Shown piece after piece: positions 46,800 through 47,892 of a stretch of 64,000 bases of DNA; positions within the stretch are counted from its first letter, which is position 1; each line of letters opens with the position of its first letter. The notes below the pieces were generated by a model. That model saw nothing but the letters and a program-made list of their open reading frames with translations. It did no database searches and was not told the origin of the DNA. The DNA is from Eledone cirrhosa (Eukaryota). The stretch is from contig OZ024743.1 in assembly GCA_964016885.1 (NCBI GenBank), positions 29,450,001 to 29,514,000 on the forward strand, written 5' to 3'. A program made the translations under genes and the position numbers.

Positions 46800-47189
46800 T
46801 CCTTTGTCAGTGTTGAACAAACGAGCAACGATGGTTGCTGGACACTACGTCTTAATACGGGATGTTTTTTTACAAACACACCGAGCATTATAATAAATGT
46901 TCGGTGAGTCCATACGTACATATATATATGTGTGCATGTATGTATATATTTATACATAATACTGTACGTCTGTATACATATATGTATGTACGTGTACATA
47001 CTTATATATATATATATATATAAAATTGGAATTGGTGCTCTGAAATAGCGACATATATATGAACGCATATATAGTGTATTTTGCAATACACTGTATGCTT
47101 AATTAAAAGCATTTCGAAGACCTTACGTTATTGTTTTAGAGTAGTGACAGTCTCACTTACTTTACATTTTCAACAATCAGGGGAGATAA

Positions 47190-47234
47190 AGCTAACAGAG
47201 CTCTGTTTCGTACTTTTTGGTACCTATCAAAGCT
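47190..47234 (-). ncRNA. Variant-core hammerhead motif, family 3 (second copy 47512-47556, GUC triplet)
   Basis: AGCU-UUGAUAG-GUAC CAAAAA GUAC-GAAA-CAGAGCUCUG-UU-AGCU. Confidence 0.6.
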
Positions 47235-47618
47235 AAGTTTACTCCACCTGTTTGCTGAAAATGATGAATGTTGGATTCTTATAGACTTCTAGTAATAATC
47301 AGGAACCGATTATACAGAGCGTTGCCGGTCCAGCAGAAATTGAAAATTGGAATTGGTGCTCTGAAATAGCTATATTTATATGAACGTATATATATATAGT
47401 GTATTTTGCACTACACTGTATGCTTAGTTAAAAGCATTTCAAAGACCTTACGCTATTGTTTTAGAGTGACAGTCTCACTTACTTTAAATTTTCAGCAAAC
47501 AGGGGAGATAAGGCTGACAGAGCTCTGTTTCGTACTTTGTGGTACCTATCAAAGCTAAGTACTCCACCTGTTTGCTGAAAATCATTAATGTTTGATTCTA
47601 GTAATTCTAGTAATTGTT

Positions 47619-47665
47619 AGATTTGATAAGTACCAAAAAGTACGAAACAGAGCTCTCTGTTATCT
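47619..47665 (+). ncRNA. Hammerhead with U3-A8 covariant core, family 3
   Basis: AGAU-UUGAUAA-GUAC CAAAAA GUAC-GAAA-CAGAG CU CUCUG-UU-AUCU. Confidence 0.68.
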
Positions 47666-47892
47666 CCCCTGTTTGCTGAAAATTTAAAGTAAATGAGACT
47701 GTCACTACTCTAAAACAATAGCGTAAGGTCTTCGGAATGCTTTTAATTAAGCATACAGTGTATTGCAAAATACACTATATATATACATTCATATATATAT
47801 ATATATATATATATATATATATATATATATATATATATATATATATATATATATATATATATATATATATATATATATATATATATATATAT

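What the first reader, a model, noticed from the sequence alone, without database searches (positions are those of the whole stretch)
47022..47790. Third repeat family with a non-canonical U3-A8 hammerhead core
Seen in sequence: UUGAUAA (47623-47629) and UUGAUAG (two copies) replace CUGAUGA, followed by GUAC/GUAC stem II, GAAA, palindromic CAGAGCUCUG stem III and a GUU/GUC triplet. Established knowledge: C3-G8 is a tertiary Watson-Crick pair and U3-A8 is a known active covariant. Inference: a natural variant ribozyme that CUGANGA pattern searches miss; the A9G copies may be less active.
Basis: partly seen in the sequence, partly recalled or inferred. Interest (0 to 1): 0.7.

Follow-up and report, generated by a model that had tools for sequence, protein, structure and literature searches.

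The report
Variant hammerhead in Penelope-driven repeat
This is a worn copy of a short repeat with well over a thousand copies in an animal genome, likely pasted in by Penelope-type retrotransposons, whose predicted self-cutting RNA has a rare but already published core base swap as its family norm, and whose subfamilies suggest a predicted off-switch that opens only when two units pair.

Summary
Three type I hammerhead motifs with a U3-A8 core lie in one insertion of a ~322-bp non-coding repeat: two tandem minus-strand units plus an inverted partial unit, between (TA)n tracts. U3-A8 is the family norm: 896 + 693 exact-pattern matches with mostly A8, against 88 C3-G8 copies of a sister subfamily and 17 mixed pairs. 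A tree suggests one switch from C3-G8, kept while stems I-III changed in compensating pairs. The window's own copies are decayed: A9G and GUU are rare, and the plus-strand copy lost part of stem I. Insertions carry the Penelope-like (PLE) footprint, so this is a non-LTR retrozyme. U3-A8 is published in nature (PMC3088659) and in PLE hammerheads (PMC4209133), and this scan noted such repeats before in this and other genomes. The one added lead is computational: core bases 3-5 are predicted to pair with stem III in monomers and circles, while palindromic arms pair across tandem units. No cleavage or RNA data. New member of a known kind.

The parts
47022..47345 (-). 3'-most full unit (~322 bp) of the retrozyme-type repeat; ends at the 'long' 3' end of the family
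   Evidence: 15 substitutions from its subfamily consensus
47343..47614 (-). second, 5'-truncated tandem unit (unit positions 50-324)
   Evidence: 14 substitutions from consensus
47617..47790 (+). inverted partial unit (unit positions 110-293) at the 5' end of the insertion; ends at the 'short' 3' end
47168..47259 (-). type I hammerhead 1 with extended stem I; core UUGAUAG 47230-47224 (U3-A8, A9G), triplet GUU, predicted cut between 47194 and 47193
47490..47581 (-). type I hammerhead 2 with extended stem I; core UUGAUAG 47552-47546, triplet GUC, predicted cut between 47516 and 47515
   Evidence: fold z -6.7
47517..47528 (-). 12-nt palindromic stem III arm of hammerhead 2; predicted to pair with the arm of the neighbouring unit, or, by its 5' part (47527-47521), with 47556-47550 in the predicted off fold
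47619..47665 (+). damaged hammerhead 3; core UUGAUAA 47623-47629 is the family consensus, but the 5' distal stem I is cut off by the inversion junction and the 3' stem I strand has a deletion
47003..47021 (.). (TA)n tract at the long 3' end; also the end of a 421-bp hammerhead-repeat insertion
47791..47893 (.). (TA)n tract at the short 3' end

Best explanation
This is a decayed insertion of a ~322-bp non-coding repeat family whose units carry a full-length type I hammerhead motif with U3-A8 as the family consensus, likely a non-LTR retrozyme copied in by the reverse transcriptase and GIY-YIG endonuclease of a TA-targeting Penelope-like element. Shown: the consensus state, the sister subfamilies with C3-G8, compensating changes in all three stems, and the insertion footprint. 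Inferred steps: (1) multimeric transcripts of tandem units are made; (2) the palindromic stem III arms of two units pair to form a double hammerhead that cuts at GUC and releases unit-length RNA, which may circularise; (3) a single unit or circle is predicted to fall into an off fold in which core bases 3-5 pair with the 5' half of stem III; (4) a PLE protein reverse-transcribes the RNA from two nearby start sites into (TA)n, giving the tandem-plus-inverted insertions with one long and one short end. The window's three motifs are probably weak or dead (A9G, GUU, deletion).
For: Consensus: 896 matches with A8, only 3 with C3; a second U3-A8 branch has 693 matches, 96 of the first 100 listed reading UUGAUAA; 88 C3-G8 copies, mostly with a 5-nt loop 2; U3.G8 10 (6-nt loops only); C3.A8 7. 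Tree with the core masked: two C3-G8 subfamilies against seven U3-A8 subfamilies, bootstrap 95; ladder-like succession in 48 real copies. Structure: 12 of 30 pairs changed on both sides in 21 chosen copies, 95% of cells paired against 31-43% when slid; full-length Rfam HH9 match, 24.5 bits, same loop 2. Footprint: of 121 insertions 80 hold both orientations; 170 of 198 3' ends fall at two positions ~30 nt apart; 130 of 198 abut TA repeats against 9 of 44 5' ends; 53 of 78 two-ended insertions have one long and one short end, as described for PLEs (PMC8557442, PMC11167929). PLE ORFs with RT and GIY-YIG are abundant here and one ends in (TA)n. Folding: arm-arm pairing P>=0.5 in 20 of 30 real dimers; off helix P>=0.5 in 10 of 11 circular monomers.
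Against: No cleavage, transcript or circle was observed. No PLE with a pLTR homologous to the unit was found among 50 GIY-YIG loci, so the partner is unassigned. The fully constrained double hammerhead never exceeds P 0.31 in 28 dimers, and the two C3-G8 dimers tested do not favour arm-arm pairing. Nearest-neighbour energies omit the loop 1-loop 2 contact and Mg2+, which could let monomers cleave. The Rfam match is far below the gathering score of 52. In a PLE tested in vitro, hammerhead cleavage was not needed for insertion (PMC11167929), and 8 of 9 Xenopus retrozyme dimers did not cleave (bioRxiv 10.64898/2026.07.22.740005). Sampled copies are best hits and pattern picks, not a random sample.
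Confidence: 0.8

Rival explanations
1. Same retrozyme, but the ribozyme works as an ordinary monomer stabilised by the loop 1-loop 2 contact; U3-A8 is a neutral compensatory swap and the predicted off helix is a by-product.
For: Stem III can form a 3-bp hairpin with a tetraloop, and loop 2 equals that of HH9. Coral and mussel retrozyme monomers cleave at 0.8 and 0.1 per min (PMC7229834). The switch is one event on a branch with other changes. U.G-tolerant transitions keep such a helix easily: 4 of 24 transition outcomes keep its stability.
Against: The arm stays a perfect 12-nt palindrome through two paired changes, including the position that would be loop in a monomer. The off helix is kept through C-G to U.G to U-A at position 3 and U-A to U.G to C-G at position 2.1. 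The monomer active fold is 1.6-6.8 kcal/mol below the ensemble in all 8 subfamilies computed.
Confidence: 0.4
2. The motifs are decayed copies of a canonical CUGAUGA hammerhead.
For: The window units are 14-15 substitutions from consensus, and A9G and GUU are departures. C3-G8 relatives exist.
Against: U3-A8 outnumbers C3-G8 about ten to one in the matched pattern and mixed pairs are about 2%. Copies within 1% of consensus carry it.
Confidence: 0.02
3. The structure is conserved for PLE protein binding or RNA stability, and cleavage is weak or not needed for mobility.
For: Hammerhead mutants of an anole PLE still insert in vitro (PMC11167929). One near-pristine copy (L088) differs from consensus only by A9G and C17U, the two changes seen in window unit 1, which hints that a weakened source was still copied.
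Against: Core bases, GAAA and GUC (120 of 124 sampled triplets) are kept in every subfamily consensus while the stems turn over, and the 3-8 pair changed on both sides.
Confidence: 0.15
4. A satellite spread by DNA-level recombination, or an assembly artefact of inverted repeats.
For: Tandem units; no laid contig spans the whole stretch.
Against: Short dispersed insertions (median 543 bp) on many contigs with fixed 3' ends and variable 5' ends; G.U pairs favour one strand.
Confidence: 0.03

Closest known systems
Metazoan non-LTR retrozymes (Cervera and de la Pena 2020, PMC7229834, parts 2-3 of 6 read; Li et al. 2026, bioRxiv 10.64898/2026.07.22.740005, parts 1-3 of 5 read)
   Same: 150-450 bp AT-rich non-coding tandem units, one type I hammerhead per unit, dispersed copies, co-occurring PLEs.
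   Different: U3-A8 core as family norm (not mentioned in the parts read); 12-nt palindromic stem III; clear PLE footprint; expression and circles not shown here; no homologous pLTR found.
U3-A8 minimal hammerheads of Schistosoma Cercyon PLEs (Cervera and de la Pena 2014, PMC4209133, parts 1-2 of 4 read)
   Same: Same core covariation in a PLE-linked type I hammerhead, about 1,300 hits, missed by the canonical descriptor.
   Different: Those are minimal motifs, mostly single. Here the motif is full length with an HH9-type loop 2 and extended stem I, in tandem units, with C3-G8 sister subfamilies in the same genome.
Natural core variants (Perreault et al. 2011, PMC3088659, passages read)
   Same: States that C3-G8 covaries to U3-A8 in several natural hammerheads and that such ribozymes were already shown active in vitro.
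   Different: Does not bear on this family or on A9G.
Rfam Hammerhead_HH9 (RF02275)
   Same: Full-model alignment, identical 6-nt loop 2, internal loop in stem I.
   Different: 24.5 bits against a gathering score of 52; different core pair and a longer stem III.
EN+ PLE insertions (Craig et al. 2021, PMC8557442, passages; Frangieh et al. 2024, PMC11167929, parts 1-2 of 4)
   Same: Partial tandems, inverted 5'-truncated copy, 30-40 bp tail at one end, (TA)n or AT-rich targets.
   Different: No ORF; the element is non-autonomous.

Membership tests
Type I hammerhead ribozyme | Three stems around the core with stem I open-ended | tested here: met
Type I hammerhead ribozyme | Watson-Crick pair between positions 3 and 8 | tested here: met
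   U-A or C-G in every subfamily consensus; mixed pairs about 2%
Type I hammerhead ribozyme | U4 G5 A6, A9, G12 A13 A14, A15.1-U16.1, H17 | tested here: met
   Met in the family consensus; A9 is not met in the two minus-strand window copies
Type I hammerhead ribozyme | Self-cleavage 3' of H17 | not testable with these tools
   No assay; only contigs were available
Rfam Hammerhead_HH9 (RF02275) | Score at or above the gathering threshold of 52 bits | tested here: not met
   16-24.5 bits
Non-LTR retrozyme | Non-coding 150-450 bp unit with one type I hammerhead, in tandem | tested here: met
Non-LTR retrozyme | Dispersed multicopy family without LTR structure | tested here: met
   PBS and PPT were not searched
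Non-LTR retrozyme | Expressed as unit-length linear and circular RNA | not testable with these tools
   No run on record as RNA was served
Non-autonomous PLE derivative | PLE footprint: 5' inversion, optional ~30 bp tail, microsatellite target | tested here: met
Non-autonomous PLE derivative | Sequence homology to the pLTR of an autonomous PLE | tested here: inconclusive
   None among 50 of at least 150 GIY-YIG loci; family copies there look like separate insertions
Minimal PLE hammerhead (min-HHR) | Very short or absent stem III, long stem II, poorly defined loop 1 | tested here: not met
   4-bp stem II, 12-nt arm, extended stem I

The most novel reading that the evidence does not exclude
The C3-G8 to U3-A8 switch was not neutral: position 3 serves two exclusive pairings, with base 8 in the active core and with stem III in an off helix. 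As the lineage gained a perfect 12-nt palindrome, U3 tuned the off helix so that monomers and circles stay uncut while tandem units switch on. The subfamilies record this as stepwise G.U-bridged covariation in a helix that excludes catalysis, giving a natural dimer-gated hammerhead in which the canonical revertant would cleave worse than the variant.
Probability: 0.3. Interest if true: 0.6.

Novelty: new member of a known kind. Interest (0 to 1): 0.33.

Why it matters
As filed it is ordinary: one more animal retrozyme family with a published core variant. It does show that CUGANGA descriptors and Rfam thresholds miss at least ~1,500 hammerheads in one genome. Its value is as a natural series: C3-G8 and U3-A8 subfamilies on one backbone, with compensating changes in each stem, make it possible to test why a nearly invariant core pair can switch and spread, and whether retrozymes protect their circles by a selected misfold.

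Tried and rejected
Rfam at gathering threshold: 0 matches in the window; miRNA-family hits at E-value threshold reflect the inverted repeat and TA tracts and were rejected. RNA: no RNA holder listed; contigs of X1, X2 and X4 cover pieces only and say nothing on expression or on this locus's junction. Metagenome scan with a family pattern: 0. First C3-G8 count used a fixed 6-nt loop and found 1 copy, missing the 5-nt-loop sister subfamily later counted at 88. A midpoint-rooted tree first suggested C3-G8 was a reversion; adding a more distant C3-G8 subfamily reversed this. The idea that U3 simply weakens the misfold everywhere fails in the GGCC-arm branch, where the revertant is predicted to misfold less. 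Window RT ORFs give RVT_1 without GIY-YIG and were not pursued as partners. A U3-A8 PLE in this genome shows no homology to the unit. Four papers on core-pair kinetics and PLE hammerhead dimers were not held, so rates for U3-A8 and A9G are not cited. Text searches for the variant found only PMC4209133 as relevant, and one search for an off fold in retrozymes listed none among the 15 of 80 shown; supplements were not read and may show U3-A8 retrozymes.

Full report
Observation. Chance gives 0.12 such matches per window against 3 seen. The perfect palindrome holds for the two minus-strand copies only. Rfam finds nothing at gathering level, but family copies align over the whole HH9 model at up to 24.5 bits with an identical loop 2, and stem I extends into a long distal helix (z -4 to -9 in six of six intact copies folded). 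So this is a full-length type I motif, not a minimal one.

The element. The motifs lie in one insertion: a full ~322-bp unit (47022-47345), a truncated unit (47343-47614), and an inverted partial unit (47617-47790), between (TA)n tracts. The genome is 3.0 Gb and the family is spread over many contigs. Among 121 distinct insertions sampled, 80 hold both orientations and 78 have two outward 3' ends. Of 198 3' ends, 87 fall at unit positions 289-296 and 83 at 315-324; 130 abut TA repeats, against 9 of 44 5' ends and a background of 3-10%. Of the 78, 53 have one long and one short end. Partial tandems, an inverted 5'-truncated copy, a 30-40 bp tail at one end and (TA)n targets are the described PLE footprint (PMC8557442, passages), and the tail matches two RT start sites in vitro (PMC11167929). 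GIY-YIG elements are abundant here. One has an intact 938-aa RT plus GIY-YIG frame with a Cys-rich linker of the Neptune/Nematis type, two pLTRs, and a 3' end at (TA)n. It shows no homology to the unit, so PLE mobilisation is inferred from the footprint and the partner is not identified.

Is U3-A8 the consensus? Yes. An exact pattern with A8 gives 896 matches (position 3 not fixed, C3 in only 3 of them). A second branch with a GGCC arm gives 693, of which 96 of the first 100 listed read UUGAUAA, 2 have C3.A8, 2 have U3.G8 and none C3-G8. C3-G8 gives 88. Mixed pairs number 10 (U3.G8, 6-nt loops only) and 7 (C3.A8), as expected from single changes after insertion. A9G has 4 exact matches, two in the window, and GUC is the triplet in 120 of 124 sampled copies. 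All counts are lower bounds. The window's units are 14-15 substitutions from consensus, and the plus copy has lost its 5' distal stem and four bases of stem I. That A9G lowers activity is recalled, not read here.

History. In 229 sampled units (best hits of four queries plus pattern picks, 30 left as singletons), nine clusters have U3-A8 and two have C3-G8. With the core masked, the two C3-G8 subfamilies split from seven U3-A8 subfamilies at bootstrap 95. In 48 real copies rooted on the distant C3-G8 subfamily, one branch of length 0.047 leads to all U3-A8 groups, with the GGCC-arm branch nested last (support labels there may be shifted by re-rooting). The root is assumed and no formal clade test was run. 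On 21 hand-picked copies, 12 of 30 pairs changed on both sides, in stems I, II and III and at 3-8. The 3-8 change is one event, not six.

Mechanism. By established hammerhead biochemistry C3-G8 is a tertiary Watson-Crick pair (PMC3884650, passages) and U3-A8 versions are active (PMC3088659, passages), so the consensus motif likely cleaves. The lowest-energy fold of a single unit is not the hammerhead: bases 2.4-5 pair with the 5' half of stem III. The active monomer lies 1.6-6.8 kcal/mol off the ensemble in 8 of 8 subfamilies, and the off helix has P>=0.5 in 10 of 11 circular monomers. In real tandem dimers the two arms pair with each other in 20 of 30 cases (20 of 28 with U3, 0 of 2 with C3-G8); the window dimer gives 0.60 against 0.39 off. 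This fits the dimer model in which multimers cut and monomer circles do not (PMC4209133). Swapping the core back to C3-G8 in the script makes the double hammerhead less accessible in 11 of 12 perfect-arm dimers (median 1.9 to 4.0 kcal/mol). Along the lineage the off helix goes C-G, U.G, U-A at position 3 and U-A, U.G, C-G at 2.1; 1 of 24 transition-only and 1 of 648 any-change outcomes is as stable as observed, and 4 and 7 keep the starting stability. Against: this test is post hoc on one lineage; the full double hammerhead never exceeds P 0.31 in 28 dimers; the revertant effect reverses in the GGCC-arm consensus; and the energies omit tertiary contacts, Mg2+ and the weaker U-A pair in the active core.

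Comparison. It works like, and on tested features belongs with, animal non-LTR retrozymes (PMC7229834; bioRxiv 10.64898/2026.07.22.740005); expression and circles could not be tested. U3-A8 in PLE hammerheads was published in 2014 (PMC4209133). Earlier notes of this scan describe U3-A8 retrozymes with PLE footprints in this and other genomes; I read them after reaching my view and take them as unchecked. My text searches found no report of the off helix (15 of 80 listed), but key kinetic papers and all supplements were not seen.

Verdict. Real, family-wide, and a new member of a known kind. The window copies are decayed. The subfamily series and the predicted dimer-gated off switch are a testable lead, not a result. 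Interest 0.33.

Noticed in passing
L147:4771-10000 (minus strand); also L148, L152, L155, L160, L166: Young autonomous PLE (938-aa RT plus GIY-YIG frame, Cys-rich linker) whose two pLTRs carry a minimal hammerhead that also has U3-A8 (UUGAAAA, CCGG stem III); 3' end at (TA)n. Not homologous to the 322-bp unit.
   Followed up: partly
L157:3545-3665, L161:3787-3909, L153, L127, L125, L133 and others: A related PLE family (~65% identical in the ORF) has the U3-A8 core and reads GCAA where GAAA is expected, in more than ten copies: a possible second core change (A13C) fixed in a family.
   Followed up: no
L141:2205 (+); also L124, L136, L165: A third pLTR-like hammerhead type reads UUGAUAA with GCAU/AUGC in stem II, like the GGCC-arm retrozyme branch; convergence or exchange is untested.
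   Followed up: no
window 19560-23489: 467-bp repeat, 6.3 units on one strand and 2.1 inverted, nearly 100% identical, between TA tracts, with a canonical CUGAUGA minimal hammerhead and CUAG stem III: a very young insertion with the same footprint.
   Followed up: partly
window 41792-42822 and 45544-47010: Two insertions of a 421-bp repeat with a CUGACGA hammerhead-like motif; the 322-bp insertion sits in the TA tract at the end of the second.
   Followed up: partly
L172:1589-1684 and relatives (L167-L196): The distant C3-G8 subfamily has a U.U mismatch at the base of stem II, a shorter stem III and GUU as consensus triplet; a U.U base of helix II is also reported for an axolotl retrozyme (PMC7229834).
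   Followed up: partly
L088:1328-1602: A copy that differs from consensus only by A9G and C17U, the same two changes as window unit 1.
   Followed up: no
L112:1171-1774: Adjacent units assigned to different subfamily clusters, a possible mixed array.
   Followed up: no
window 7871-10475 (-), 34884-36627 (+), 54678-55151 (-): Reverse-transcriptase frames (RVT_1, zf-RVT) in pieces, without GIY-YIG hits: probably LINE remnants.
   Followed up: no
window 542-591 (-); L156:9889, L152:533, L153:4962: Further CUGANGA hammerhead-like motifs with long stem II and palindromic stem III; the window one recurs in L156.
   Followed up: no
window 44152-44576: Diverged 173-bp tandem repeat, 2.5 copies.
   Followed up: no
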